From Promethearchaeati archaeon SRVP18_Atabeyarchaeia-1 (lineage in GTDB: Archaea > Asgardarchaeota > Atabeyarchaeia > Atabeyarchaeales > Atabeyarchaeaceae), in assembly GCA_037308085.1 (NCBI GenBank), contig CP147779.1, forward strand, positions 672,001-736,000: a DNA stretch of 64,000 nt, given 5' to 3'. Positions within the stretch are counted from its first letter, which is position 1. Each line of letters begins with the position of its first letter. A model generated the notes under the pieces. The model saw only the letters and a list, made by a program, of their open reading frames with translations. It had not been told where the DNA came from and made no database searches. Positions 3,220 through 56,521 of this stretch are shown here, piece after piece. Position numbers and translations under genes: made by a program.

Positions 3220-4431
3220 TTGGAAGACAACGCCGTCGAAGAAATCCTGTTTGGGAAATCAGTCTTCAAGAATGAAGCCACACTACTCTCAGAGTATGTT
3301 CCTCCAAGACTTCCGCGCAGGCAAAGCGAGGTTATGCGGCTAGCTCAGGATTTTAGGCCTCTTCTCATAAGAGACGGTTCCTTCGCCGTAAACATAGCAA
3401 TAGTCGGCGATGCAGGTATAGGCAAATCGGCACTTGCGAAATCTGTCATGGAGAAGATAGTCCAAGCCGCAGCGAAAAGAAACGTGAAGATACTGTATGA
3501 GTACTTCAACTGCTATACTTTTCGCACGAAAAGCGCAATCCTAAGAAACTTGCTGACTGAACGCTTCCATATTCTGAGTCGCGGCTTCTCAGACGAGGAA
3601 TTGCTTAGCATGTTAGTAAAGCGACTTGTCAGTGAAAATGCGAAGCTTATAATCGTTCTTGACGAAGCCCCGATCTTGGGCGGAGGAGAAATACTGAGCA
3701 TGTTACATGCCTCTGAAGTATATGGATTTGGTCAGTCGCGAATTTCTACAGTCATTGTTAGTCGACCCTCCGAGTGGAGAGTAGTATTAAGTGCTCCTCT
3801 GTCAGGACATATACATGACCAGATAAACATGCGTAGTTACAGTAAGGAGGACCTTCTTGAAATACTGCGCTACAGGACGGACATAGCATTCGTTCCAGGG
3901 GCAATCCCCGAAGATATCCTGGATATGGTGGCGGAGATCGCTTCACAGACAAGGAACGCTAGGCATGGAATTGAAATACTCTATCAGTCGGGCAAGGAAG
4001 CCGACTCAGAAGGTAAGAGCCAGTTGACAGCTGACATGATCCGTCAAGCAAAGGAAAGCGTATACCCAGAACTGCGGTACGACGTGTTTTACACCTTAAA
4101 GCCACAGGAAATCTTGGTAGCCCTAAGCATAGCCAGGGTGCTGAGTTCTAAGGGATCAACTTCCACAACTATCGATGAAGCCTTCAGCAGCTACCGTGTA
4201 ATATGTGAGGAAGAGAATTTCCCACCCCAATTCAAAGCGAGTTTCAGAAAGAACGTCAATCTCCTGCTCAGCTTGGGTTTCATGGGGCTGATTGTGGGTC
4301 CCATAGAGAAAGGTAAACGGGGAAGGCACGGCAGAATAACGCTGTACGACATCCCGGCAAGCGTCCTTGAAGAAAGACTTCACGATATTCTGCGCAGACT
4401 GAAGAAAGGGGAACTGAGCGATTCAGGTTGA
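3220..4431 (+). CDS. cdc6: Orc1/Cdc6 replication initiator
   Basis: YVPPRLPRR, Walker A GDAGIGKS, Walker B IIVLDEA, C-terminal wHTH with GKRGRHG. Confidence 0.92.
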   Translation: MEDNAVEEILFGKSVFKNEATLLSEYVPPRLPRRQSEVMRLAQDFRPLLIRDGSFAVNIAIVGDAGIGKSALAKSVMEKIVQAAAKRNVKILYEYFNCYTFRTKSAILRNLLTERFHILSRGFSDEELLSMLVKRLVSENAKLIIVLDEAPILGGGEILSMLHASEVYGFGQSRISTVIVSRPSEWRVVLSAPLSGHIHDQINMRSYSKEDLLEILRYRTDIAFVPGAIPEDILDMVAEIASQTRNARHGIEILYQSGKEADSEGKSQLTADMIRQAKESVYPELRYDVFYTLKPQEILVALSIARVLSSKGSTSTTIDEAFSSYRVICEEENFPPQFKASFRKNVNLLLSLGFMGLIVGPIEKGKRGRHGRITLYDIPASVLEERLHDILRRLKKGELSDSG

Positions 4432-4494: not shown

Positions 4495-5325
4495 CTAGAA
4501 GTAGTCTGAGATCTCCTCTTCTTCATTCCTTTGAGTTTTGCGAAGTACCTCGGAGCATTTCCTGGGATTTAATCGCTTATATTCTAGATTAAGCAATGCT
4601 ATGCTTTTCTGGGTTCCCTTAGCCATGCTCTCTGCTATCAGTATCCCCCTTGCACTTGGGTCTCCTTTTCTAATGGTCTCCACGTATCTTGATAATTGCA
4701 GTGCAGCTTCTTTTGTTGCTTTTCCTCTCTTGATCTCGATAATTGTGTAGTTCCCGTTCCTGTCCTTTCCGAATATATCTGCGAAGCCAGTGGGCATTTC
4801 CTTCTCTGATGTTATGGGGACGAAGCCTTCCTCAATCAAACTGGGATCACAGAGGATCGCCTTCTTCATTTCCAACTCAGAGCCGTGCATGAGTATCTCG
4901 CTTTCGTCGGACAGTCCTAACACGCATACCAAGTAGAGTTTTGAAAAGGTGATCTTGACAGATTCCAGAGGCCTCATTCTTACAGCTGTAACCTCTAACC
5001 TGTTGTCTGAGTGTTGCTCAACTCGGAACCTGCATCCTGTTGGTTGCCAGTTCACGGGTCGATATCCGTGGCTACGGTGTATTATGAGGGCCTTGTCTGC
5101 GGTTATCAGTACGACCCTCTCACCCGCTCCCAGTGCTGAAGAGGCACGACCCTTGTAGAGTATCTCGCATAGCCCTATTATTATTACGGCTTTCGCCTTC
5201 CTTAAAGCATCTTGAACTAGGTTCTTTGCGTAATCAACGGAGGGATTCGCACTTATCTCAACAGGTCTTTTTGAATTCAAGCGATCAGATACACCTTCCT
5301 TTGATCGAAAAGGATCTTTCGGCAT
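4495..5325 (-). CDS. nucS: Mismatch-specific endonuclease NucS/EndoMS
   Basis: YKGRASS, RPVNWQP, nuclease motif ADIFGKD...IIEIKR...QLSRY; start uncertain. Confidence 0.92.
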   Translation of the reverse strand: MPKDPFRSKEGVSDRLNSKRPVEISANPSVDYAKNLVQDALRKAKAVIIIGLCEILYKGRASSALGAGERVVLITADKALIIHRSHGYRPVNWQPTGCRFRVEQHSDNRLEVTAVRMRPLESVKITFSKLYLVCVLGLSDESEILMHGSELEMKKAILCDPSLIEEGFVPITSEKEMPTGFADIFGKDRNGNYTIIEIKRGKATKEAALQLSRYVETIRKGDPSARGILIAESMAKGTQKSIALLNLEYKRLNPRKCSEVLRKTQRNEEEEISDYF

Positions 5326-5434
5326 GCGGCAAGACCATGGAGATACGAGAACAGGCTTCAATGGTTTCTGTGCTTATCCGTAATCAATACTTGGAGACTG
5401 GTCAGCGACAGGATGCGTAACACGTCTCGATATC

Positions 5435-8221: not shown

Positions 8222-8425
8222 CTAATAAGGTTCATGATCAGCAGAACACCGCACGCCGCTTTCTCTTTGAGTTTCCTTTGGCGCTCCCTAGGAAATCAAC
8301 CTTCTAGGAGTTATCACGATTACTGCTAATTCAACCCTCACCAATTCTTTTTGATATATCCCTCAGTATAAAAGCAAAAAGCGTTGCTATCTGCTCGATT
8401 TCCAGCAATAGTGCTAAACTTCGTA

Positions 8426-10129
8426 TTATACTGGGGCCTTCAGTCTAGTTATTATGATCGGCTCGGTCCACAACTTCATTTCCCCATCGTCCCTGGCAAT
8501 ATGTATGTTGACCAACCAGTTCTTGTTGTCAGTTTTCGGAAAGTCTCTTCTATAATGAGCCCCTCTGCTCTCGCTTCTCATCAAAGCCGATCTAGCAACC
8601 ATCTCTGATGTCAAGAGCATGTTAGGGATCTCGAGGGATTCGATCCATTCCTTATTGTAGCTGAGACTCTTGTTCCGGGTAGATATGCTTGATACTTCTC
8701 CTCTCATCTTGGTGATGCCATTCAGGGCGGCTTTCAGCGCGTCTGCAGTACGGAACATGCCCACATTCTCCCACATGAGTTTCTGCAAACGTTTCCTTAA
8801 CTCGATCGCGCTTGAACCGCCTTCTCTTTCCAATGGAGAATATAATTCAGTTTGCGCCGAATTGACCTGGGCCCTATCAATGCCGACATTTCCCTGTATA
8901 AACTCGGCCATCGCAGCCGCATTCTCTCCGGCTATCTTGCCAAATACCTGAGTATCCGCAAGGGCATTCCCTCCGAGCCTGTTCCCTCCGTGTACACCAC
9001 CAGTGACTTCGCCAGCAGCGAAAAGTCCCTTAATCCCAGTTTCAGCACGTTCGTTGATCTCAAGACCACCCATTAGATGATGAGCAGTAGGACTTACCTC
9101 CATCGGGTCGTTCCTTATGTCTACTCCTATCTTGAGAAACAGTTCCAGCATCGATTCAAGTTTCTCTTCTATTAGAATTGAAGGAAGGTGCGACACATCA
9201 AGGAACACGCCGCGGTGCTTGGTGCCTCGGCCTTCAAGAATCTCGTTTGCAATGCTTCTAGCTACTTCATCCCTCCCAGCAACCTCCATGAGTTTCGGAT
9301 TGTAGTTTCTCATGAAACGATCGCCGAGCCCGTTATATAGGATGCCGCCCTCTCCTCTGACGGCTTCCGTGACCAGAGTTCCACGGGCAGACTCAGGATA
9401 GACTACGCCTGTAGGGTGGAATTGAAATTGCTCCATGTCTACAAGATGCGCTCCGACGCCGTACCCAAGAGCATACCCATCCCCCGTGTCCTGCATGGCG
9501 TTGGTAGTAATGGAGTATATCCTTCCCGTACCACCAGTAGCCAGTACCACTGCCTTCGCTCTTAGAACAATGAAGCTTCCATCCTTTAGCTTGACTGCAG
9601 TGGCGCCGACAACTGCTCCTTTGCTAACGATGAGGCGCGACACGAAGATTTCGTCCATGACTCTTATGTCTCTTCTCCTGACCTCTTCAGCCAGAGTTAC
9701 CATCATCTCATGCCCAGTTCTATCGCTAGCGTAACATGTTCGTCTGTAGGTTTGTTTCCCAAACAACCTCTGCGCAATCTTCCCTTCAGCAGTTCGATCA
9801 AACAAACCCCCAAAATTCTCCAAGTCAAGAACGCGTTCAACTGCATCTTTCACTAATACTTCGACAAGGCGCTGGTTGTTTAGGTAGGCGCCTCCCTCGA
9901 CAGTGTCTTTGAAGTGAACGTCGGGGGTATCAGAAGGATCGACATTACCGAGGGCGGCATTGTAGCCTCCTTCGGCCATAATGGTGTGGGCTTTTCCAAA
10001 AAGCTCTTTGCTAAGCAAGGTCACTGTGACGTTGTGGTTGGAGGCCTCTATAGCGGCTCGGCACCCTGCGCCCCCGGCGCCCACGACGAGCACATCTGTA
10101 TCGACAAGCTCATAGTTCTCGATCAACAA
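8426..10129 (-). CDS. tfrA: Thiol:fumarate reductase flavoprotein subunit A
   Basis: GAGGAG FAD motif, AHTIMAEGG, QFHPTG, HGGNRLGGN, ESRGAHYR. Confidence 0.92.
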   Translation of the reverse strand: MLIENYELVDTDVLVVGAGGAGCRAAIEASNHNVTVTLLSKELFGKAHTIMAEGGYNAALGNVDPSDTPDVHFKDTVEGGAYLNNQRLVEVLVKDAVERVLDLENFGGLFDRTAEGKIAQRLFGKQTYRRTCYASDRTGHEMMVTLAEEVRRRDIRVMDEIFVSRLIVSKGAVVGATAVKLKDGSFIVLRAKAVVLATGGTGRIYSITTNAMQDTGDGYALGYGVGAHLVDMEQFQFHPTGVVYPESARGTLVTEAVRGEGGILYNGLGDRFMRNYNPKLMEVAGRDEVARSIANEILEGRGTKHRGVFLDVSHLPSILIEEKLESMLELFLKIGVDIRNDPMEVSPTAHHLMGGLEINERAETGIKGLFAAGEVTGGVHGGNRLGGNALADTQVFGKIAGENAAAMAEFIQGNVGIDRAQVNSAQTELYSPLEREGGSSAIELRKRLQKLMWENVGMFRTADALKAALNGITKMRGEVSSISTRNKSLSYNKEWIESLEIPNMLLTSEMVARSALMRSESRGAHYRRDFPKTDNKNWLVNIHIARDDGEMKLWTEPIIITRLKAPV

Positions 10130-46851: not shown

Positions 46852-49800
46852 TTACTCCTTGTCCCTGTCTTCTTCGAGAGTTAGAAGCTGCTGTTGTGAT
46901 TCCTTCGGTCTCCCCGATTTCAGGTTGCTCCATTCTGATTCTTCAAGCGTCACCCCAACTTGCTCGTAGATGCTCTTGGCGATCTCGCGTCCGATAGTCG
47001 GTATTGAGAGAAGCTGGGAAGGCTTTGAATTCCTTAGGTCACCAACAGTCTTGAAACCGGCGTTGAACAGCATTCTCGCTCTCACCCTGCCTATCCCCTT
47101 CAAGTTCACGAGCTCAAGCAGTTCCTCCTTTACTCCTTCCACGATACGTCTTCTCAGATTCATCGCAAGCGGTAACACATCCTTCCTGCCTAGGAGTTTT
47201 GCGATCTCATAGGTTGAGTAGAGAAGCCAATCCGCTGATTCCACATATCTGAAAATATCTCCTGAGCCAACATCGAAGTTCTCGATGATGCCCTCTTCAG
47301 GGGACTCCTCCATCCATGACAATAGTAACCGAGTCGTCTTGACTTCCGAGAGGAACTGTTCATACTCCACCGGATTGCTCCAAGGATCAGGGACATCCAC
47401 AAGGAATTCGCTGACCGACTCATCCACGAAGGACTCCATCTCCTTGTAGTCCTTCCTTCTCAGGAAAATTGGCTCCATGTCAGGAGTGTGACACATCATG
47501 TGAATCACGCCGATTGCCGTCTTGATCCTGCTACTCTGTATGCTATCTCTAATGATCACAGCCGACTTCGGATCGATGTACAGTTCAGACACCCTGCTCC
47601 CAAAGGGGGTTGCCGCTAATCTTCTTCCCCTCGACTCCTTGAGCATGTTCTCGGAAACCAGAAACTCCAGGACAGTCTCAATCACACCTTCGATGTCCTT
47701 AGGATCATATTGATGACCATAGAAGGTCCTGCCGATGAAACTCAGGATTTCCTCTTGGCTGTTTGCCAGACCCATAGCTACAGACGAAAGAATGTGCGAC
47801 CTGAGGACCGACTCCTTACCAAGCTTCGACCATATCTTCTCAGGCTCCCCGTAAACGTACGTTTCAAGCAGAGTCGCCCGCTCCTCATGCCCGCGCGCAA
47901 CCAGAACAGCCTCACCAATCCTGTCATACTTCGGCCTACCCGCCCTCCCAGCCATCTGCTTATACTCCAAGACCGGGATCGGGTAATACCCAAGACCAGT
48001 CTCATACCTCCTATAATTATCAATTATCACCATTCTAGCAGGAAGATTAACGCCGGCAGAGTTGTGGACTATGAAGCCATTTGCCACAAACATATGATCG
48101 TTTTCGGGTGTGTCTGGCAAAGCCACATCATAAACGTATGAATCTTGCTTGCTATTGCCTATTCTCTTGATGAAATCCCAATAAATATCTCCTTGAAAGT
48201 CATTTGCACGCCATGTTCCACGTATTCTTTGCTCCAATCTGGTTCCACATTGTGGACAAGTTTCAGGCTTGAAGAACTCATCGATATCTCTATTCTGAGC
48301 GATATAGTTCGAGAAAATCCATTTTCCGATCGGATTAAGGCTCCAGAACCATTCGTTCTTGTCGATTGTGCCGATTCTTCTCTTACTAATTAGATGGTAA
48401 TGTTGATTGAGTCTTGTTTCGTTTTTCCTAGGTTCTCTCCCAAGAATATTTCTTATTTCTCTTGATCCTAGTTCTCCTCTTTCGCCCAAGAGTTTGATAA
48501 CCAAGAGTTTCGTTTTACCCCATTGTTTTTGGACTTTGGTTCTCCCAGTGAAAAGCGATCTGTGTATCTTGTAGCCGCACTCCCTGCAAGATACGTATAG
48601 AAGGTTAGCCTCTATTCTTGATACTAATGAGTCGATTTCTCTCTGCTTGGCTGCAACATGGAACCCGACATTTCTTCCAAAATCCACAATACAGCGCCCG
48701 TCAGCAATTATCAATTCATAACTTGGCTTGGTCGAGTATTCTTTCCCTGCGGTTTTGATTACTCTCCCTCTTCTTTTCCTGATCCAAGTGACTATCCCGA
48801 ATCTTAGAAGCAGTTTTTGAACTTGGTCAATAAGCTTTCTGGAGGTGTTAGCAAATCCTACGTTTCTTCCCTTATTGACATATCCGTCGCTATCAAACAA
48901 CCCCTGCAGTAAGCTACCTATGTTTCTCTTGCTCATTGACATGAGCTCATTGTTGATGTACTTGTGTGAGCCTACTTCTACGCCGCATCGGACTAAGAAC
49001 TCTCTGAACCACTTGTTCTTGCCGAGTATGAGTTGAGGAGTTCCGTAGAAATTCACTGTTCTTCTACAACTAATTCCGAGTCTTGAACAAGTTTCTTCGA
49101 CATAAGGAAAGATCTCGGTCTTCGTGCCGACTATAGATGGGGTGCCCTTATAGTGAACCACCCCTCTCCATGTTTCAGCGCCTGAGTAACCATCTCCCAA
49201 CATTACGCCAAGGAAATATGATAATTCAGAGGAAAAGGCTAGGTCAGGGGATTCGGATCGATTATCAATAACGAAGTCGCTGATTGATGGTTGGCTAACT
49301 CTCTCTGTTTCCAAGTTTCGTACCGTAGCTATCTTGTCGGTCTCTCTTACTTCATTGGCAGGAATAACTAGTGGTCTAGTTCCACGCTTGATTAGGATCC
49401 TATGATTAGGGGTGACCTTGATAGAGCGACCTGACACTGATGATATCTCAACTAGAGGAGATGCAGAAGGGAGTCTGCTGATTTGCGAGGCTCTCACTTC
49501 GACTAGCTTGGTTCCGTTCAAGGCGTATAGGGGGTCGGAGGCGCGTAGTTCTGAGACCTCTGTTTCAGCCATTCCGTGCCATATCTTGGTGTCAGGTGAA
49601 AGGCAGAGTGTTGGGGTTGCGCATATGATCTTGACCTTGTTTTCCCTGAAGGCGGCCTCTATGATTCTCCGTTCTTGATACCTTAGGCCTGCGTGGTGGA
49701 ATGCAACGTTCCTTGATGTGAGCTCTGAGAGCATCTCAGTGACCTTGGTGACCTCGCCTGTTCTCAGGATCGAGTTTGATACCTGTTTGAGTGCTCTCTT

Positions 49801-50631
49801 CTCGGGAAGCGATATGATCGGGGCGGTGTGTTTGGCTATTCTGGATGCAAGATTCACGGACTTCTTTCTCGTGTCGGTGAATATGAGCACTTGCCCTCCA
49901 TCTCTCACCGCCTTCAACGCCAAGTCTATCGCTGCTACTCCAATCGTGTTTCGGATCTGCCTCTTCTCGCCATCGCCGAAATAGATCGCCCCTGAATCAT
50001 ATACGCCCTCCCTGAGCTTCACAGGTCGCCACCCGCTTGTTACGAGATCGGCTTTGAGCCACTTCGCTATCTCGTCAGAGTTGCTTATTGTGGCGCTCAG
50101 CGCAAGGACCTGCGCTGATGGGTTCAGCTGCATAAGCCTTGCAAGAACAACCTCGAGTGTAGGCCCTCTCTCATTCTCATTAATCAGGTGAACCTCGTCT
50201 GCAACTATCGTCGTCAGGCTACCCATCCAGTCAGCATGGTGGCGAATCAGCGAATCAACCTTCTCCGTCGTGGACACCACGAGATCAAAGTTGCGCAACC
50301 ACTGGTCCGAGCTATCCAGATCGCCGGTGGACTGCACAACCCGGACACCGATCTTCTCGTACTTCTTGAACTCCCTGTTCTTCTCGTCTGCCAGAGCCTT
50401 GAGCGGAACGAGGTAGATGGCCTTACCACCCGACTCCAATATCGATTTGACCATGCACAATTCTGCGACAAGCGTCTTACCCGACGCCGTAGGAACCGCT
50501 AGAACAAGGTTCTTACCTTCAAGAACCCCTTTCCTGATCGCATCTTCCTGAGGCGGATAGAGGTCCACATAACCCTCCTTCTCCAAGATGGCTTTGACTG
50601 ACTCGGGTACTGCTAGCTCACTGATCTTCAA
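46852..50631 (-). CDS. hel308: Ski2-like helicase Hel308/Hjm containing one intein
   Basis: PTASGKT, DEVH, LSAT, FHHAGL, ATPTL|intein|SAGVNLP, QMAGRAGR, C-terminal HhH. Confidence 0.93.
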   Translation of the reverse strand: MKISELAVPESVKAILEKEGYVDLYPPQEDAIRKGVLEGKNLVLAVPTASGKTLVAELCMVKSILESGGKAIYLVPLKALADEKNREFKKYEKIGVRVVQSTGDLDSSDQWLRNFDLVVSTTEKVDSLIRHHADWMGSLTTIVADEVHLINENERGPTLEVVLARLMQLNPSAQVLALSATISNSDEIAKWLKADLVTSGWRPVKLREGVYDSGAIYFGDGEKRQIRNTIGVAAIDLALKAVRDGGQVLIFTDTRKKSVNLASRIAKHTAPIISLPEKRALKQVSNSILRTGEVTKVTEMLSELTSRNVAFHHAGLRYQERRIIEAAFRENKVKIICATPTLCLSPDTKIWHGMAETEVSELRASDPLYALNGTKLVEVRASQISRLPSASPLVEISSVSGRSIKVTPNHRILIKRGTRPLVIPANEVRETDKIATVRNLETERVSQPSISDFVIDNRSESPDLAFSSELSYFLGVMLGDGYSGAETWRGVVHYKGTPSIVGTKTEIFPYVEETCSRLGISCRRTVNFYGTPQLILGKNKWFREFLVRCGVEVGSHKYINNELMSMSKRNIGSLLQGLFDSDGYVNKGRNVGFANTSRKLIDQVQKLLLRFGIVTWIRKRRGRVIKTAGKEYSTKPSYELIIADGRCIVDFGRNVGFHVAAKQREIDSLVSRIEANLLYVSCRECGYKIHRSLFTGRTKVQKQWGKTKLLVIKLLGERGELGSREIRNILGREPRKNETRLNQHYHLISKRRIGTIDKNEWFWSLNPIGKWIFSNYIAQNRDIDEFFKPETCPQCGTRLEQRIRGTWRANDFQGDIYWDFIKRIGNSKQDSYVYDVALPDTPENDHMFVANGFIVHNSAGVNLPARMVIIDNYRRYETGLGYYPIPVLEYKQMAGRAGRPKYDRIGEAVLVARGHEERATLLETYVYGEPEKIWSKLGKESVLRSHILSSVAMGLANSQEEILSFIGRTFYGHQYDPKDIEGVIETVLEFLVSENMLKESRGRRLAATPFGSRVSELYIDPKSAVIIRDSIQSSRIKTAIGVIHMMCHTPDMEPIFLRRKDYKEMESFVDESVSEFLVDVPDPWSNPVEYEQFLSEVKTTRLLLSWMEESPEEGIIENFDVGSGDIFRYVESADWLLYSTYEIAKLLGRKDVLPLAMNLRRRIVEGVKEELLELVNLKGIGRVRARMLFNAGFKTVGDLRNSKPSQLLSIPTIGREIAKSIYEQVGVTLEESEWSNLKSGRPKESQQQLLTLEEDRDKE
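48061..49605 (-). mobile_element. Intein (515 aa) with LAGLIDADG homing endonuclease, in Hel308 motif V
   Basis: Starts CLSPDT, block B VTPNH, LGVMLGDG and LQGLFDSDG motifs, ends IVHN followed by S. Confidence 0.93.
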
Positions 50632-50675
50632 GAGTGTCGCTGACCTCTAACAAAACCTTCAGTGGCTCGGATTAC

Positions 50676-53600
50676 TCAGGCCTTCTTCACGATCCCCTGC
50701 CTTGGCTCAAAGAGCACGCCCTCCTTGACCAACTTATTGATGGCATCCAATGCAAACTGCTTCTCTATCCCCTGAGCCGCGGCCGCTGCAACGATCTTAT
50801 CCACTTGCACGAATCCCTCCTTCGCCCCCTCCCCCAACTCGCGAACCAAAGTGATTATAAGATCAAACCTCTCACGCTGCGACTTCGTCTTCCCCACCAT
50901 GATCGTGTCAATATCAGCCCGCATGGTCTCCCTATCTATCCCCACCATCTTCAGCGAAGTAGTCATAAGGCGGATCACAGCCTCAGCGTCATCCACAGTA
51001 ATCTCCCGCTTCAATGCCATCTTCGCCCTAGACTCAGCCAACCTAACAAGAGCCTCAAGCTGCCTAGCCGTAATCGGCACAGGAGACTCAGGGTTCTCAC
51101 CCATAGCACGAGTCTCCAAGTAGAACTCCTCTATCTTCTTGGCGGCCTCATCAGTCAGCACCGGAGGCACATTCTTCTTAGCATAACTAATATACTTCCT
51201 CAAAAGCAAAGGAGCAATAGGAGCCTCATTACCAGTCGCCTTCGACGAATGCAAAGAAATCACATGCTCCGCCATCTTCCTATCCCTCTCAGACTCAGGC
51301 TTATCCACCATCACGAAAATCAAGTCAAACCTAGAAAGAACCGTAACCGGCAAATTGATGTTCTCAGCAGGATTCTTAAAACTATTATACCTACCCAGCG
51401 CCGGATTCGCAGCCGCGAGAATAGCAGTCCGAGCATTAAGCGTCGCAACAATCCCCGCCTTAGCAATCGAAATAGTGTTATGAAGCACAAGCCCGTGACT
51501 GATAAAGCAGTGATCAGGCTCTACCGTTACATCGTAAACGTATGGGCAAGACCATTTTCCTGTGTTTCTTACCTCCTCATTCCTCCTAACGCGAAGCAGA
51601 CAAATATCGCTTTGGAGCAATGCGTCAATCGCATTGATCTCCGGTTCAATAGCTGCGAGAGTCTTGCGTGCTGATTCTGTGATTGCCTCAGCCAGTTTTT
51701 TGCGGTACTCCTGCGTGTACCCTTCGTGCTCTGCATGGTATATGCGGAACTCGGTGACCCCGATCTTTCGAGCGGCAGTCACCTGAGACCAGCGGAGGAT
51801 GTTTCTTGCACTCCTAACATCTTCCGGAGCGGGATCGAGCGATTCCTTGGTCTTCAGGTATGCCTCCCTGACCTCGCCTAAGCAGGACTCAAGTAATGTG
51901 CGCGTGATGCCGTGCCCTTTCTTGGCAGCAGTCGACAAGACACCTCGGTAGGGGCGACTCAACTCCTGATATAGCTTCTTCACCCGGTCGCCGACCCCTG
52001 GCGGAAAGACATCATGGTCATAGTTAGATGCCTCAGATCGGGCCACAAGCCTGGCTATCCTTTCCTTTCGAGCGTCCCAAGGTTCAATGATAGTTCTAAA
52101 GAAGAGCGGAAGACTACTGCCGCAGATGTATACTTTGAAAGAGTCGTTATGAATATCCCGAACAATTCGGCTCTGAATGCCTGCGCACAACAGCAGATCC
52201 TGATAATCGCAGGCAAGTCCATTCGAAGCTGTCCGATAACATATGCTATCAGTTTCGACACTTCCGTCTCCCAGAAAAGCGGATTGCAGAAAGTTCAAAA
52301 CAACTTGCCTCCCAGAGGTAAACAGCTGAGGGGGAAGTCTCTTGTCGCGGGAGAGAGCTAGAACTTCTCGGAAATTGGATCTAAGCAAATCGCGTATTTG
52401 TGCAGATATATAGCGGATCTCCCTCCTCTTTTCATCATATTCTGGAGGGTCTAATCCAAAGACTTGTTTCATCAGTGTAGTGATGTCGTCTAGGATCTCA
52501 GGTGACGTATTCGAGAAACCAAACTCTGCGGACGAGCCAAAGTGGCTGAACCCCTCCGTAACAAAGTATCCCAAGATACGGGCTAACTGAGGTATCATAC
52601 GCTCTGGCAGAAGAACTGGTTTTGCATTGAAATGGACAGAGTACGGAGCGGCAAGGACAGCCCCCGGATTATGCCCGCTTGGCATCAGACGAAAGGCAGG
52701 CACAAAATCCCCGACTTCGAGCTCCGCAGCCTGCACAGTATACGACTTGTAACCGTCATAGAGAAACATCGGATGCTCGGGTGTGACAACAACCTCACGC
52801 CCATTGCTGAACCTAATCCTACGGAAACGGTCAGGAGCTCGATGCCGACTCACACGGTCTATTCGGACAGACCGAACATTACGGAGGTCAGACGTAAGGA
52901 TCTCCACACCCCGAGATCGCACATCCAAGATCTCACAATTGACTCCTTTGACCACCTCGCCTCGGCTAGCCACAAAAAGTGAGTCAACCAACTCACCAAT
53001 CGGAGTACGTACGCCATTCGCAAGTGCCACCTCCACCACGCGGTGGTACGATTGTTGCTCCATCGCTTGATGTATTGCAACCCTGTCTTGCGGATTCATT
53101 TTGTCAAACTCGTCCACCGCGGCGATGCCCCGATCTGCGAGCACAAGCGCACCGGCTTCCAAGGTCATGTCCCCGGTGTCCGCATCGCGGAGGACCGCCG
53201 CCGTGAGGCCCGCTGCTGTGGAACCCTTCCCCGAGGTGTAAAGACCTCTGGGTGCCAGCCCCGCCGTATACATTAAGAGCTGGCTGTTATGTACTATGAG
53301 GTTCCCTTCAGCGAGGATGAAATGTCCGTTTGAGGTTCCGATGTCATATACAGTTGTTTGCTCGTTCAGAAGGTCAACTTTGGTGACTTGGTCCCAGAAG
53401 ATGTCGGATTCGGCTAGTGTTTCTAGCCAGTCAAGGCAAGGAGATGCGTCGCTATCGTTCTTATCCGGGTCTAATCGTGAGATCACATTTTGCAGGTAAA
53501 CTCGACCTACGTGCTGTCTCTTTTTCTTACCTCTCAGTTCCGCTATGAAGTTCCTAGTCCAGGAATCGCGCTTACTTGTCATTCCCAGTTCTCGTGCGGC

Positions 53601-55928
53601 GCGTACCAACATTGAGCCATAGTTTGGTACTATGTCACGGGACTGGTAGCGTTTCCGAGTGCGCATGCGCTTTACGATTGATTCCAGTTTGTCTTGCTTG
53701 TTGGTTGATACAAGTCTAACCTGTTTGTGGAATGTCAGGAGGTCGGTGCCCTGTATCCTCACATGGTAGTATATGTAACCTTTGTATGGTTCCTTAGTCA
53801 CAGTGGTCTTGAAGATGCTAGCAAAGATGCCCAATGTTGCCAGTAGATCGCTCAATTGGTACGCAAGGGTTCGGCTTTTCGTTGTGCATTGTACCGCCGA
53901 TCCCTTCATGTCAATCGTTCCGTCTCCGGAGAAACAACCAGAGAGTAGTGAAAGGCGCAGAGGGTAAGGTGCAGTGAAGAATTCAGTTGGAATCTGTTTA
54001 TTTTCTGCTCCCGTTCCGAATTTCCGTTCAAACCAGGTGGCTAAGCTTGACTGGCATAGCAGGATAGAATCGTCAGTCGCTGAGAATTTACCGAAGACTG
54101 TTTCAAGATCACTCTTTAGGGAGCTTCTGATCGAATCATTACAGGCGGAAAAACGCACCGTGGTTCCTTCTACGTTGCCTTCGGCGAGATACAAGCCGAC
54201 GATTCGGCCCAATGCTGGTCCGAGTTGCAGCCATCTTGGGAACCACGTGGTGTCTCTTTTTCTGCGGAGCCATGTGCCTTTCGGGATCGAAGCGTTTCCG
54301 TTGACGATTCCGCACATCGTGTTGGCTGATATATTGCATATGGTAGCCGCTGCTCTGGCACTAACGAGATTTGACTGAATGAGGACAAGTTGTGTGTTGA
54401 TTTCCTCAGCGCTTACCAAATCTGTTTCTGGGAACTCTTCGGCTAGATCTATGAAGGGTGATCCTTCCTCTACGTCAACCTGGCGCGCTACTGGAAGGTA
54501 TGTGCCTGGGCGGAGATCTTGACCAACGATCACCTGCAACTTGCCGTCAATAATCGTTGTAAAAGAGTGATCTGGGGTAGCTAGTACCGTTCGCCCTGAT
54601 CTGGTGTGAATGCGGATTAGTCGGTCGGTTCTGTGGCGGCTAACCTCACAGATGAGTGATGACCTAGTCTTCAGGGAGAGTGGATCCATTGTCTGAGTAA
54701 ATATGGTAGCTGGGTCTCCGAGTGGAAGGATCTCTGAATCTCCTCGAAAGACCATCTCATCTCGGTGTGCTGACATCAAGCCATCGACAAGAGATCCTAT
54801 TGACTCTCTATTCCATCGCAAGGTTGAACCGCATTCTCTTCCTACATAGACCTTTTCCGTACCGTGCACGCTCTTTGCAGTTCCTGGATCCCCTATGAGG
54901 AGTACGTTTATTTCTCCTCGGATCTTGACTCCGTCTGGGAGGGTTTTTGGTACTCCTCCGAATAGGGCGAGGGCTATGGCTTCTTTGACGTCTTCGAGGC
55001 CGTAGATGGATGGGGCGATTGATTTTATTATTTTCTGGTGGATCCACTCGTCTTTGGCGAGTTCGATTATGAAGCGTTCTTCTTCTGGTGTGATCTCGAC
55101 TTTCTCGCTTTCCTTGTCCATTGTGTCGACGTAGTTTGAGTCGATGTAGGTTCTGAAGGTGGTTAGGCGGCCTCGTTTCGGGGCGAAGTCCTGTAGGGAC
55201 ATTAGTGCTCCGGTTATTGCTACGCGGTCGCCGGGTCTTGCGATGTCGACGAGGTCGTCCTTTATGATGGCGTCTAGGGATCTTGGCATCTGTCCTGGGG
55301 GGAGTTCCTCTGGCATCTCCTGTATTCTTATTTTTTGCCAGTCTACGAACTTGGAGTCTTCGACTATTAGGTTGAAGGGTCCTTCTCGTTTGCATGCGGG
55401 GCAGGTGACGGGAGGCAGGTACCTTCCCTCAAACTGCTCGACGGTTATCTTGTTGCCGCAGCTGCACTCGAATAGGGCTACGAGGAGTTGGGGCTTGACT
55501 TCGCTAACTCTTGTGATGATGCCGTCAACCATGATTAGTTTGCCAATGTGGTTCGCCCGGATCATGCGAAGCTTGACTTTTCCGGTCGTTACGTTCCTGA
55601 ACCTTGCTTTGAATTCGTGTCCGGATTCGGTAATCTTGGTGACGTAGTCGCGGTCCTCGAGTTCGACTATGGTTTTGACTGAGTCGGAGGCTGCTTTGAC
55701 GCAGTCTTCAGGATCATCGATTATCTGCCTGGCAAGCTGAGGGTCGAAGTCGAGGAGCTCATTGTAATCAATTATGACTGATCTTTCCCCGGTTACTGGA
55801 AGCCTCTGGATCGTCTCACGGTATTTCAGTGACCCAGACTCGGTGCGGAATGACTTTAGGAAGTTCTGGAATCGCTGGAACAAGTCCGCTTGTTCATCAG
55901 TGATGTCTGCGGCACTCTCATTAGCCAT
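50676..55928 (-). CDS. mcm: MCM replicative helicase containing two inteins (about 696 aa after splicing)
   Basis: Zn finger, GDPGTAK|intein|SQLL, VDEFDKM, AMEQQ|intein|TISIAKAG, SRFD, ARQLE. Confidence 0.95.
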   Translation of the reverse strand: MANESAADITDEQADLFQRFQNFLKSFRTESGSLKYRETIQRLPVTGERSVIIDYNELLDFDPQLARQIIDDPEDCVKAASDSVKTIVELEDRDYVTKITESGHEFKARFRNVTTGKVKLRMIRANHIGKLIMVDGIITRVSEVKPQLLVALFECSCGNKITVEQFEGRYLPPVTCPACKREGPFNLIVEDSKFVDWQKIRIQEMPEELPPGQMPRSLDAIIKDDLVDIARPGDRVAITGALMSLQDFAPKRGRLTTFRTYIDSNYVDTMDKESEKVEITPEEERFIIELAKDEWIHQKIIKSIAPSIYGLEDVKEAIALALFGGVPKTLPDGVKIRGEINVLLIGDPGTAKSVHGTEKVYVGRECGSTLRWNRESIGSLVDGLMSAHRDEMVFRGDSEILPLGDPATIFTQTMDPLSLKTRSSLICEVSRHRTDRLIRIHTRSGRTVLATPDHSFTTIIDGKLQVIVGQDLRPGTYLPVARQVDVEEGSPFIDLAEEFPETDLVSAEEINTQLVLIQSNLVSARAAATICNISANTMCGIVNGNASIPKGTWLRRKRDTTWFPRWLQLGPALGRIVGLYLAEGNVEGTTVRFSACNDSIRSSLKSDLETVFGKFSATDDSILLCQSSLATWFERKFGTGAENKQIPTEFFTAPYPLRLSLLSGCFSGDGTIDMKGSAVQCTTKSRTLAYQLSDLLATLGIFASIFKTTVTKEPYKGYIYYHVRIQGTDLLTFHKQVRLVSTNKQDKLESIVKRMRTRKRYQSRDIVPNYGSMLVRAARELGMTSKRDSWTRNFIAELRGKKKRQHVGRVYLQNVISRLDPDKNDSDASPCLDWLETLAESDIFWDQVTKVDLLNEQTTVYDIGTSNGHFILAEGNLIVHNSQLLMYTAGLAPRGLYTSGKGSTAAGLTAAVLRDADTGDMTLEAGALVLADRGIAAVDEFDKMNPQDRVAIHQAMEQQSYHRVVEVALANGVRTPIGELVDSLFVASRGEVVKGVNCEILDVRSRGVEILTSDLRNVRSVRIDRVSRHRAPDRFRRIRFSNGREVVVTPEHPMFLYDGYKSYTVQAAELEVGDFVPAFRLMPSGHNPGAVLAAPYSVHFNAKPVLLPERMIPQLARILGYFVTEGFSHFGSSAEFGFSNTSPEILDDITTLMKQVFGLDPPEYDEKRREIRYISAQIRDLLRSNFREVLALSRDKRLPPQLFTSGRQVVLNFLQSAFLGDGSVETDSICYRTASNGLACDYQDLLLCAGIQSRIVRDIHNDSFKVYICGSSLPLFFRTIIEPWDARKERIARLVARSEASNYDHDVFPPGVGDRVKKLYQELSRPYRGVLSTAAKKGHGITRTLLESCLGEVREAYLKTKESLDPAPEDVRSARNILRWSQVTAARKIGVTEFRIYHAEHEGYTQEYRKKLAEAITESARKTLAAIEPEINAIDALLQSDICLLRVRRNEEVRNTGKWSCPYVYDVTVEPDHCFISHGLVLHNTISIAKAGIVATLNARTAILAAANPALGRYNSFKNPAENINLPVTVLSRFDLIFVMVDKPESERDRKMAEHVISLHSSKATGNEAPIAPLLLRKYISYAKKNVPPVLTDEAAKKIEEFYLETRAMGENPESPVPITARQLEALVRLAESRAKMALKREITVDDAEAVIRLMTTSLKMVGIDRETMRADIDTIMVGKTKSQRERFDLIITLVRELGEGAKEGFVQVDKIVAAAAAQGIEKQFALDAINKLVKEGVLFEPRQGIVKKA
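51477..53051 (-). mobile_element. MCM intein 2 (525 aa, Ser-initiated, LAGLIDADG), after AMEQQ
   Basis: SYHRV..., VTPEHP, LGYFVTEG, FLQSAFLGDG, ends VLHN followed by T. Confidence 0.92.
53286..54872 (-). mobile_element. MCM intein 1 (529 aa, Ser-initiated, LAGLIDADG), in Walker A
   Basis: SVHGTEK..., ATPDHS, VGLYLAEG, LLSGCFSGDG, ends IVHN followed by S. Confidence 0.92.
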
Positions 55929-55939
55929 TACTGGTCACC

Positions 55940-56521
55940 TTACCTTTGGAGTATTCCTTTCTCCCAGCCCCTCAGCAACTTGGCCAAGCGCTGGTAGAGC
56001 CACGCTTCCTCACCTGTCATCAGGTTTGAGGTTCCAAGTGCATCGCCGCCTCGCAACGATATTTTTACAATCTTGGATATGCGGACGGATACGAGATCCC
56101 TTAGAAGCGTTTCAAACTGAGCAAGTCTCCTGACGCTATCGAGGTCGCGAGCAGCGTTACTGACTTTCTCCTGGAAGGATTTTGCGAGTTCCTTAGCAAG
56201 CACGTAGAAGTCTTCGGGTAGTTTCTGAAGTGGGGTCTCCAGTTGTTCCTTCCAGAGGATGTTTTCAAAGTCCTTGTAAGCTAGTTTCTGCTCTTCCCTC
56301 ATCACTCCTGCATTTGCTTTGGCGAGAGCCTCTGCCGCCCAAAGTGGGAGAGTGACGTCTTGGCCTTTTGCGACTGAGGCCAGATCCTTTCCCGCAATCA
56401 CTAGGTCTTCCAGAGGTTTCGTTATGGTCAGTTTTACCTGCTTGTTATTTCTCTCAAATTCGTAAGATTCTGGGTTGAACTCAAGATCGTCCACGATTAG
56501 CACCGATCTTCTATTAGACAA
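55940..56521 (-). CDS. GINS complex subunit, Gins23 (Psf2/Psf3-like)
   Basis: LPLWAAEAL, LQKLPEDFY, RISKIVK, NLMTGEE; lies directly upstream of mcm. Confidence 0.85.
   Translation of the reverse strand: MSNRRSVLIVDDLEFNPESYEFERNNKQVKLTITKPLEDLVIAGKDLASVAKGQDVTLPLWAAEALAKANAGVMREEQKLAYKDFENILWKEQLETPLQKLPEDFYVLAKELAKSFQEKVSNAARDLDSVRRLAQFETLLRDLVSVRISKIVKISLRGGDALGTSNLMTGEEAWLYQRLAKLLRGWEKGILQR

What the first reader, a model, noticed from the sequence alone, without database searches (positions are those of the whole stretch)
50676..55400. Mirror-image synonymous-site skew centred on the MCM intein sites
Seen (hand counts): 35 of the 40 extein codons just upstream of intein 1 end in A/C, while 37 of the 39 codons just downstream of intein 2 end in G/T. 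The short extein between the two inteins is mixed. The skew is strong enough to create stop-free shadow ORFs (50634-51674 + and 54808-55395 -). On the + strand the DNA is A/C-rich left of the inteins and G/T-rich right of them, like a local origin-type keto-skew switch. Inference: this is a mutational footprint of repeated homing-endonuclease cutting and strand-asymmetric repair synthesis, or of break-initiated replication. It would record intein homing history in the flanking DNA. I do not know of this pattern being described.
Basis: partly seen in the sequence, partly recalled or inferred. Interest (0 to 1): 0.78.

Follow-up and report, generated by a model that had tools for sequence, protein, structure and literature searches.

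The report
Strand-flipping DNA footprint at intein sites
Around the spots where selfish 'homing' enzymes cut this archaeon's DNA, silent bases are pushed to A/C on one side and G/T on the other, a footprint we found no description of, most likely left by a mismatch-cutting repair enzyme that favours some alleles during repair.

Summary
It is not a one-off. In this complete Asgard genome (probably Atabeyarchaeia-1), 11 of 15 inteins show the same flip with the same polarity, including the Hel308 intein next door. Intein interiors are flat. Intein-less mcm alleles are flat in the congener and weakly skewed in the confamilial. It is not a replication origin, an assembly join or codon selection: it follows the DNA strand into neighbouring genes and affects Leu first positions. 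The few intein-free flips (EF-2, atpB, etfB, rps12 region) lie near free-standing endonuclease-like genes. Across archaea the mcm flip occurs in 12/32 intein-bearing genomes with EndoMS/NucS versus 2/37 where NucS was not found; Thermococcus is a flat exception. Its purely mutational mechanism is less likely than biased gene conversion: EndoMS cuts only G/T-type mismatches, so in homing heteroduplex it would remove G/T alleles from the recipient's 3'-ended strand. That mechanism is inferred, not shown. I found no description in the paper library.

The parts
50676..55928 (-). mcm gene (replicative helicase precursor, 1750 aa) carrying two inteins
   Evidence: ORF; Pfam MCM_N, MCM_OB, MCM, MCM_lid, Intein_splicing, LAGLIDADG_3
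54873..55688 (-). 5' extein flank, A/C-rich at synonymous sites (codons 81-352; 223/272 A/C; strongest next to the intein, fading towards the start codon)
53286..54872 (-). intein 1 (529 aa, just after Walker A Lys), two LAGLIDADG motifs with acidic residues present; mildly A/C-rich (it lies in intein 2's 5' flank)
53052..53285 (-). middle extein (78 codons), mixed 41/78 G/T: 3' flank of intein 1 and 5' flank of intein 2, so the two biases would cancel (inference)
51477..53051 (-). intein 2 (525 aa, after MEQQ), two LAGLIDADG motifs; its 5' part is G/T-rich (it lies in intein 1's 3' flank)
50829..51476 (-). 3' extein flank, G/T-rich at synonymous sites (codons 1485-1700; 194/216 G/T); skew continues into the start of hel308
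50634..51674 (+). shadow ORF, in-register antisense frame; by-product of the skew, not a gene
   Evidence: no Pfam hit
54808..55395 (-). shadow ORF in the frame starting on third codon positions; by-product of the skew, not a gene
   Evidence: no Pfam hit
46852..50631 (-). hel308 (Ski2-like helicase) gene with its own intein and the same flip
48061..49605 (-). Hel308 intein (515 aa, LAGLIDADG); flanks 17/59 G/T before and 49/58 G/T after (flip z 6.2)
4495..5361 (-). nucS/endoMS gene, candidate trans-acting cause; base-recognition and catalytic residues match T. kodakarensis EndoMS in the alignment
   Evidence: Pfam NucS_N and NucS_C; alignment to 5GKE, E 7.5e-48

Best explanation
It is a strand-polarised composition footprint of repeated homing-endonuclease cutting followed by homologous repair (this link about 0.9). 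The most likely engine is biased gene conversion by EndoMS/NucS. At every homing event the cut (recipient) allele supplies the 3'-ended strand of the heteroduplex: the top strand left of the cut, the bottom strand right of it. EndoMS cuts G:T, G:G and T:T mismatches but hardly A:C (PMC8228993). A recipient G/T facing a donor G/T would therefore be cut out and recopied from the donor, giving A/C, while a recipient A/C is left alone. Repeated over many events this ratchets each strand to A/C 5' of the site and G/T 3' of it, over the length of the heteroduplex (about 0.5-1 kb). The intein itself has no homologue in the recipient, forms no heteroduplex and stays flat. Shown: the pattern, its polarity, extent, tie to cut sites and the taxonomic association with NucS. 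Inferred: the heteroduplex geometry, EndoMS action during homing, and that free-standing endonucleases cut at the intein-free flips.
For: Tie to cut sites: 11/15 inteins have flip z 3.1-7.3 against a null of sd 1.06, none strongly reversed. It decays from about 0.29/0.23 in the first 150 bp to about 0 by 600-900 bp, and intein interiors are flat at <=0.04. It occurs at both LAGLIDADG and HNH inteins. Intein-less mcm is flat in the congener (z 0.6) and weak in the confamilial (z 3.2). DNA-level, not translational: opposite-strand neighbouring genes z 8.7 and non-genic DNA z 3.8 follow the same polarity; Leu first position T in 14% upstream, 54% downstream, 36% genome-wide. 7/21 free-standing endonuclease-like genes have a flip within 3.5 kb versus 5% of controls. 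Related genes lie on the same side of EF-2, the RuBisCO-like gene and atpB in the confamilial genome, 4-11 kb away. NucS link: mcm flip z>=2.5 in 11/27 NucS-only, 1/5 NucS+MutL, 0/18 MutL-only and 2/19 with neither found; 12/32 versus 2/37, Fisher p 0.002. This genome has a nucS with the key residues and no MutL. Spectrum: no 5' or 3' context effect. G is more depleted at 4-fold than at A/G 2-fold sites upstream (fold 0.077 versus 0.199, z -2.8), which suggests G->C removal. The A+T share of favoured bases is 0.76-0.79 in family f14 and 0.02-0.18 in three of four Hermodarchaeota-like genomes (0.39 in the fourth), not the 0.5 a simple transitions-only model predicts. nucS deletion severely impairs gene conversion in Haloferax (PMC11276520).
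Against: NucS is not sufficient: Thermococcus sp. is flat at 8 inteins and at mcm, Odinarchaeia are flat or weak, and 20/32 NucS+ genomes show no mcm flip. Four inteins here (Ogg, RmlB, NrdD, IscU) are flat although endonuclease motifs are present. In the congener only 1 of the 6 shared inteins scored is strong. The NucS association uses incomplete MAGs and related genomes, so the p-value overstates. A plain state-bias model did not beat transitions-only models in total likelihood (-537 versus -524 and -520); the Hermod-like C/G excess needs an extra assumption. The downstream transversion test was not significant (z -1.1). Free-standing endonuclease genes are themselves mildly skewed, which heteroduplex with an endonuclease-less recipient would not explain. 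The atpB flip also occurs in G037 and G015, where no such endonuclease was found with my queries. No cleavage or conversion was observed directly.
Confidence: 0.5

Rival explanations
1. Error-prone or uncorrected repair synthesis. The strand newly made during repair (top-right, bottom-left) accumulates G:T wobble errors or single-strand damage, giving C->T and A->G.
For: It predicts the observed polarity and decay. It explains mild skew inside free-standing endonuclease genes. Absence of MutL is also associated with the flip (13/46 versus 1/23, p 0.025). Mutation tracts at break-induced replication are known (PMC8366565).
Against: Genomes with neither MutL nor NucS found are mostly flat (2/19). 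Intein interiors, which are newly synthesised at each event, show no gradient. The C->T class on the G/T strand is the weakest, not the strongest, and has no context, which argues against cytosine deamination. There are signs of transversion-class bias. Reaching 0-5% G/T over hundreds of codons by mutation needs very many events per lineage, whereas conversion acts on standing variation (inference).
Confidence: 0.25
2. Biased resolution of heteroduplex by something other than EndoMS, for example a proofreading exonuclease, a glycosylase or a mismatch-sensitive strand-exchange step. The EndoMS association would then be a lineage correlate.
For: It fits the flat intein interiors and strength as well as the best explanation, and accommodates the flat NucS+ Thermococcus and the lineage-specific C/G flavour.
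Against: I know of no other enzyme with keto:keto selectivity (from memory); EndoMS specificity matches the rule directly (PMC8228993); the flip tracks NucS across several separate lineages.
Confidence: 0.13
3. The cut sites act as recurrent break-initiated replication origins, and the skew is ordinary leading/lagging asymmetry.
For: The polarity is the same as at the true origins. Recombination-dependent replication is reported in archaea (PMC11409957, abstract seen, not read).
Against: Fork-related skew in this genome is <=0.06, versus 0.3-0.44 at mcm. The signal dies within about 1 kb and skips the intein interior.
Confidence: 0.07
4. Codon, tRNA or mRNA selection, or selection to escape cleavage, in conserved highly expressed genes.
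For: The intein-free flips are in conserved, probably highly expressed genes (EF-2, atpB), and the 5' side is the stronger one there.
Against: The flip is inside single genes. Opposite-strand neighbours and non-genic DNA follow DNA polarity. Intein-less orthologues are flat. The extent far exceeds a recognition site.
Confidence: 0.03
5. Assembly chimera or chromosomal origin.
For: None found.
Against: Contigs from other sequencing runs (one study) tile the region with 0 differences in run X2, and X3 covers its gap. The reading frame is intact. The pattern recurs in other genomes. Cumulative-skew minima are at about 2.15 Mb and 641 kb, and the cdc6 genes are 50 and 85 kb from mcm.
Confidence: 0.01

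Closest known systems
GC-biased gene conversion at meiotic recombination hotspots (PMC8366565)
   Same: A composition change centred on recurrent double-strand breaks, plausibly from biased repair of heteroduplex mismatches, and leaking into non-synonymous sites.
   Different: The rule here is amino versus keto and flips sign with strand across the break. GC content need not change (A:C fold 0.88 in this genome). It is archaeal and driven by homing, not meiosis.
Co-conversion of flanking markers during intron/intein homing and by free-standing endonucleases such as T4 SegG and MobE (cited in PMC10643990)
   Same: Flanking DNA is converted around the cut site; free-standing endonucleases act on a neighbouring gene.
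   Different: Known co-conversion transmits donor alleles regardless of base identity; here the outcome is base- and strand-specific and near fixation.
Replication-origin GC/keto skew switch
   Same: Same polarity: A/C-rich 5' and G/T-rich 3' of the point on each strand.
   Different: 5-7 times stronger than this genome's origin skew, confined to about 1-3 kb, inside genes, at cut sites, and skipping the intein.
Mutation tracts of break-induced replication / kataegis (PMC8366565)
   Same: Strand-coordinated changes flanking breaks.
   Different: No TpC or CpG context; the T->C class on the A/C strand is strongest; it is a population-level equilibrium, not a single-event scar.
EndoMS/NucS non-canonical mismatch repair (PMC8228993; PMC11276520)
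   Same: Its substrate hierarchy (G:T, G:G, T:T far above A:C) matches the keto/amino rule; it is needed for efficient gene conversion in Haloferax.
   Different: I found no report of a genomic footprint or of a role in homing; NucS-bearing Thermococcus shows no footprint.

Membership tests
Canonical LAGLIDADG (DOD) inteins | In-frame insertion starting with Cys/Ser, ending His-Asn, followed by Ser/Thr/Cys, with a Hint domain | tested here: met
   absent from orthologues at the same positions
Canonical LAGLIDADG (DOD) inteins | Two LAGLIDADG motifs with acidic catalytic residues | tested here: met
   both mcm inteins
Canonical LAGLIDADG (DOD) inteins | Active cleavage of the empty allele | not testable with these tools
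   Contigs that skip intein 2 exist in two runs but may come from another organism
Chromosomal replication origin (skew switch) | Coincides with the cumulative-skew minimum, next to cdc6, intergenic, long-range | tested here: not met
GC-biased gene conversion | Strand-symmetric bias towards G+C | tested here: not met
   The bias is strand-polarised; A:C fold 0.88 and T:G fold 1.31 here. Extra C/G enrichment is seen only in Hermodarchaeota-like genomes
Biased gene conversion (general) | Confined to regions that form heteroduplex | tested here: met
   Flanks are skewed and intein interiors are flat; mild skew in free-standing endonuclease genes is a caveat
Biased gene conversion (general) | Transmission distortion of existing alleles rather than new mutation | not testable with these tools
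   Only contigs, no read-level polymorphism; orthologues are saturated at 4-fold sites, identity 0.33-0.39 in unskewed regions
EndoMS/NucS pathway | Gene present with recognition and catalytic residues | tested here: met
EndoMS/NucS pathway | Footprint restricted to, and general in, NucS-bearing lineages | tested here: inconclusive
   12/32 versus 2/37, but Thermococcus and others are flat; MAGs incomplete, kin not independent
EndoMS/NucS pathway | Transversion classes G<->C and T<->A biased as well as transitions | tested here: inconclusive
   z -2.8 upstream, -1.1 downstream; model likelihoods mixed
ssDNA deamination / kataegis | C->T dominant with sequence context; on resected 3' overhangs the polarity would be G/T-rich 5' of the break | tested here: not met
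   The C->T class is weakest and context-free; the observed polarity is opposite to overhang damage
Free-standing homing endonucleases (intein-free flips) | Endonuclease-fold gene next to the conserved target gene | tested here: inconclusive
   Structure and feature leads only: PD-(D/E)XK-like C-terminus beside EF-2 and LAGLIDADG-like beside rps12 and atpB; proximity enrichment; cleavage untested; not found in G037 or G015
Former intein sites (intein-free flips) | Flip coincides with an intein site known from homologues | tested here: not met
   atpB inteins map after residues 271, 296 and 340, the flip at 321-326; EF-2 inteins map after residue 33, the flip at 589-595 (best 120 hits each)

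The most novel reading that the evidence does not exclude
EndoMS/NucS creates a previously unrecognised evolutionary force: strand-polarised amino/keto biased gene conversion at any recurrent break. It drives synonymous sites near fixation and shifts amino-acid sequences in core genes (MCM upstream 32 amino versus 11 keto changes, downstream 23 versus 29, against the congener; p 0.004). It also lets one read past and present homing sites, including targets of uncharacterised free-standing endonucleases, from a single genome to within a few codons.
Probability: 0.45. Interest if true: 0.92.

Novelty: new variant of a known kind. Interest (0 to 1): 0.83.

Why it matters
The footprint gives a sequence-only map of where, and how intensely, homing endonucleases have cut, and it predicts cut sites for unknown free-standing endonucleases to within a few codons. 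If EndoMS is the cause, it shows how an EndoMS cut is resolved in vivo, which is an open question because the enzyme cuts both strands, and it defines a prokaryotic counterpart of GC-biased gene conversion. Practically, it can distort codon-usage, dS and phylogenetic signals in marker genes (mcm, EF-2, atpA/B, rpoA'/B) of Asgard and other archaea, and it creates long false ORFs.

Tried and rejected
Origin or assembly artefact: rejected. Shadow ORFs as genes: rejected (frame arithmetic). Damage on resected 3' overhangs: predicts the opposite polarity. Translational selection: rejected. Intein-free flips as lost inteins: I noticed a Thr near all four change points, but homologue intein sites do not coincide for atpB or EF-2; not tested for etfB or the RuBisCO-like gene. 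Dead endonucleases as the reason four inteins are flat: motif inspection does not support it. Polarising substitutions with congeners: saturated, uninformative. Read-level polymorphism: only contigs were available; the empty-site joints at 82% likeness may be other organisms and are not used as support. Phage inteins: no actinophage hits were obtained; four phage intein genes from other hosts showed no clear flip by eye. Mini-intein versus full intein: too few NucS+ cases to test; Odin mini-inteins are flat. First BHB-intron scan timed out and was rerun. Nine paper searches, four aimed at this pattern, found no description; the library lacks most subscription journals. My gene calls are home-made (no Prodigal), so some background ORFs may be wrong.

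Full report
SOURCE. The window is positions 672001-736000 of a single-contig 2,808,651-bp genome. Its confamilial relative G002 has the length of CP147780, Ca. Atabeyarchaeum deiterrae Atabeyarchaeia-2, and Atabeyarchaeia-1 is reported as 2.81 Mbp (PMC11291895). I infer this is Atabeyarchaeia-1, an Asgard archaeon.

OBSERVATION. mcm runs 55928->50676 on the minus strand, with inteins at 53286-54872 and 51477-53051. The skew is larger than reported: 223/272 A/C over codons 81-352 and 194/216 G/T over codons 1485-1700. The two shadow ORFs are consequences of missing A- or T-ending codons and have no Pfam match. The adjacent hel308 intein shows the same flip (z 6.2).

GENERALITY IN THIS GENOME. 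There are 15 inteins. After correcting for amino acid, 11 have a flip of z 3.1-7.3 with the same polarity, against a null of sd 1.06; Ogg, RmlB, NrdD and IscU are flat. Pooled, the residual is -0.29/+0.23 in the first 150 bp and near zero by 600-900 bp, and intein interiors are flat. One strongly flanked intein carries an HNH rather than a LAGLIDADG nuclease. The bias is on the DNA, not the message. Neighbouring genes on the opposite strand (z 8.7) and non-genic DNA (z 3.8) follow it, as do Leu first positions. It appears to leak into protein sequence: p 0.004 against the congener, p 0.15 against the confamilial.

CONTROLS. The intein-less mcm of the congener is flat (z 0.6); the confamilial's is weakly skewed (z 3.2), like two Freyarchaeia-family alleles. 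These weak cases may record past invasion (inference). Chromosome-scale fork skew is at most 0.06, with minima near 2.15 Mb and 641 kb; mcm is 50-85 kb from the cdc6 genes and its local skew is 0.3-0.44. Contigs from other runs of one wetland study tile the region without differences.

INTEIN-FREE FLIPS. Among 1987 intein-free genes, three flip at z>6: EF-2, atpB and etfB. A RuBisCO-like gene and the rps12 region join them in a wider scan. The EF-2, atpB and RuBisCO-like change points fall within a few codons of each other in family members, with about 0-9% G/T on the 5' side. The atpB flip also occurs in Freyarchaeia and G015. They do not match intein sites known from homologues. Instead the genome holds about 21 free-standing endonuclease-like genes in four families. 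The gene behind EF-2 is a multi-HTH protein whose C-terminus resembles phage endonuclease I; those near rps12 and atpB are LAGLIDADG-like. Seven of 21 have a flip within 3.5 kb, against 5% expected. In the confamilial genome, relatives of these genes again sit downstream of EF-2, the RuBisCO-like gene and atpB. That these proteins cut there is inferred, and none was found in G037 or G015.

ACROSS ARCHAEA. In about 100 mcm loci the flip is extreme in Hermodarchaeota and Asgard family f14 (z up to 13). It is moderate in some Desulfurococcales, Bathyarchaeia and Thermoprotei, and absent in most others, including many with full-length inteins. Scored by repair genes: 11/27 NucS-only, 1/5 both, 0/18 MutL-only and 2/19 neither. 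Both 'neither' cases are incomplete MAGs; one has a NucS+ congener, and the other's mcm codon counts closely match a NucS+ genome's. Kin are not independent, so p 0.002 overstates. Thermococcus sp. has NucS yet is flat at all nine sites examined.

MECHANISM. At a break repaired by homology the recipient's 3'-ended strands are top-left and bottom-right (established knowledge). Damage to those overhangs would make the 5' flank G/T-rich, the opposite of what is seen. Two models give the right sign. (A) EndoMS cuts G:T, G:G and T:T but hardly A:C mismatches (PMC8228993), so in heteroduplex it would remove recipient G/T alleles and keep A/C ones. nucS loss impairs gene conversion in Haloferax (PMC11276520), and this genome's nucS lies at window 4495-5361 with key residues aligned. 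(B) Errors or damage on the newly made strand. Favouring A: flat intein interiors, near-fixation strength, flat genomes lacking both systems, no sequence context and weak C->T class, stronger G loss at 4-fold than 2-fold sites upstream, and favoured-base A+T shares far from 0.5 in several genomes. Favouring B or a third route: mild skew inside free-standing nuclease genes, Thermococcus, and mixed model likelihoods. I put the link to cutting at about 0.9, A at 0.5, B at 0.25, another heteroduplex bias at 0.13 and break-initiated forks at 0.07.

COMPARISON AND VERDICT. It works like GC-biased gene conversion at hotspots and like homing co-conversion, but fails membership of gBGC (strand-polarised, amino/keto), of origin skew and of deamination tracts. 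The inteins themselves are ordinary. No paper in the searched library describes the pattern; subscription literature is largely missing from that library. It is a robust, surprising, multi-lineage signal with a specific and testable mechanism that is not yet shown. Novelty: new variant of a known kind (repair bias at break hotspots). Interest 0.83.

Noticed in passing
L045:3069-3109 (+) (genome 2219068): gatE is interrupted by a 41-nt insertion with a bulge-helix-bulge layout; removing it restores the frame. It looks like an archaeal mRNA intron.
   Followed up: partly
L041:3762-3783 (-) and about L041:3460-3490 (-): The RuBisCO-like gene is interrupted by a 22-nt frameshifting insertion about 12 codons past its skew flip, and probably by a second one; removing the first extends the frame to 390 aa. 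The first is absent in G002.
   Followed up: partly
genome G000:C1 about 383798 (+): A 41-nt BHB-like insertion at the GTLDP motif of cbf5/truB, which from memory is the known archaeal mRNA-intron site.
   Followed up: no
window 3220-4431 (+) and 4495-5361 (-): A cdc6/orc1 gene lies tail-to-tail with nucS/endoMS.
   Followed up: partly
genome G000:C1 658255-659655 (-): The PolD large-subunit intein appears to end in Asp rather than Asn.
   Followed up: no
L038:2541-4313 (+), L039:3-725 (+), L042:4995-7409 (-), L038:10474-11724 (-), L040:7120-8103 (-): About 21 free-standing endonuclease-like genes in four paralogous families (three LAGLIDADG-like, one multi-HTH with a PD-(D/E)XK-like end), often next to conserved genes.
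   Followed up: partly
L045:8191-9162 (-): A gene that looks like cas1, beside a CRISPR-like array, is A/C-rich at third positions along its whole length (G/T 0.1-0.3), as if a cut site lay just 3' of it. Unexplained.
   Followed up: no
L185:821-3019 (+) (G037 EF-2): Freyarchaeia EF-2 has a flip near codon 90, a different position from the Atabeyarchaeia EF-2 flip and with no intein.
   Followed up: no
L015, L078, L131 mcm flanks: In Hermodarchaeota-like genomes the flanks are specifically C-rich upstream and G-rich downstream at 4-fold sites (for example 70 C of 75; 55 G of 62), a different flavour of the bias.
   Followed up: partly
L047 about 8300-9050 (genome 451330-452022): A LAGLIDADG ORF in two pieces inside what appears to be the rRNA region, probably intron-encoded.
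   Followed up: no
L042:7734-10001 (+) (genome 1069733-1076779): A 2349-aa Lhr-type helicase with no intein detected by my HMMs; its 5' part is G/T-rich as the right flank of the rps12-region flip.
   Followed up: no
window 55940-56521 (-): A GINS-like gene directly upstream of mcm, with hel308 directly downstream.
   Followed up: no
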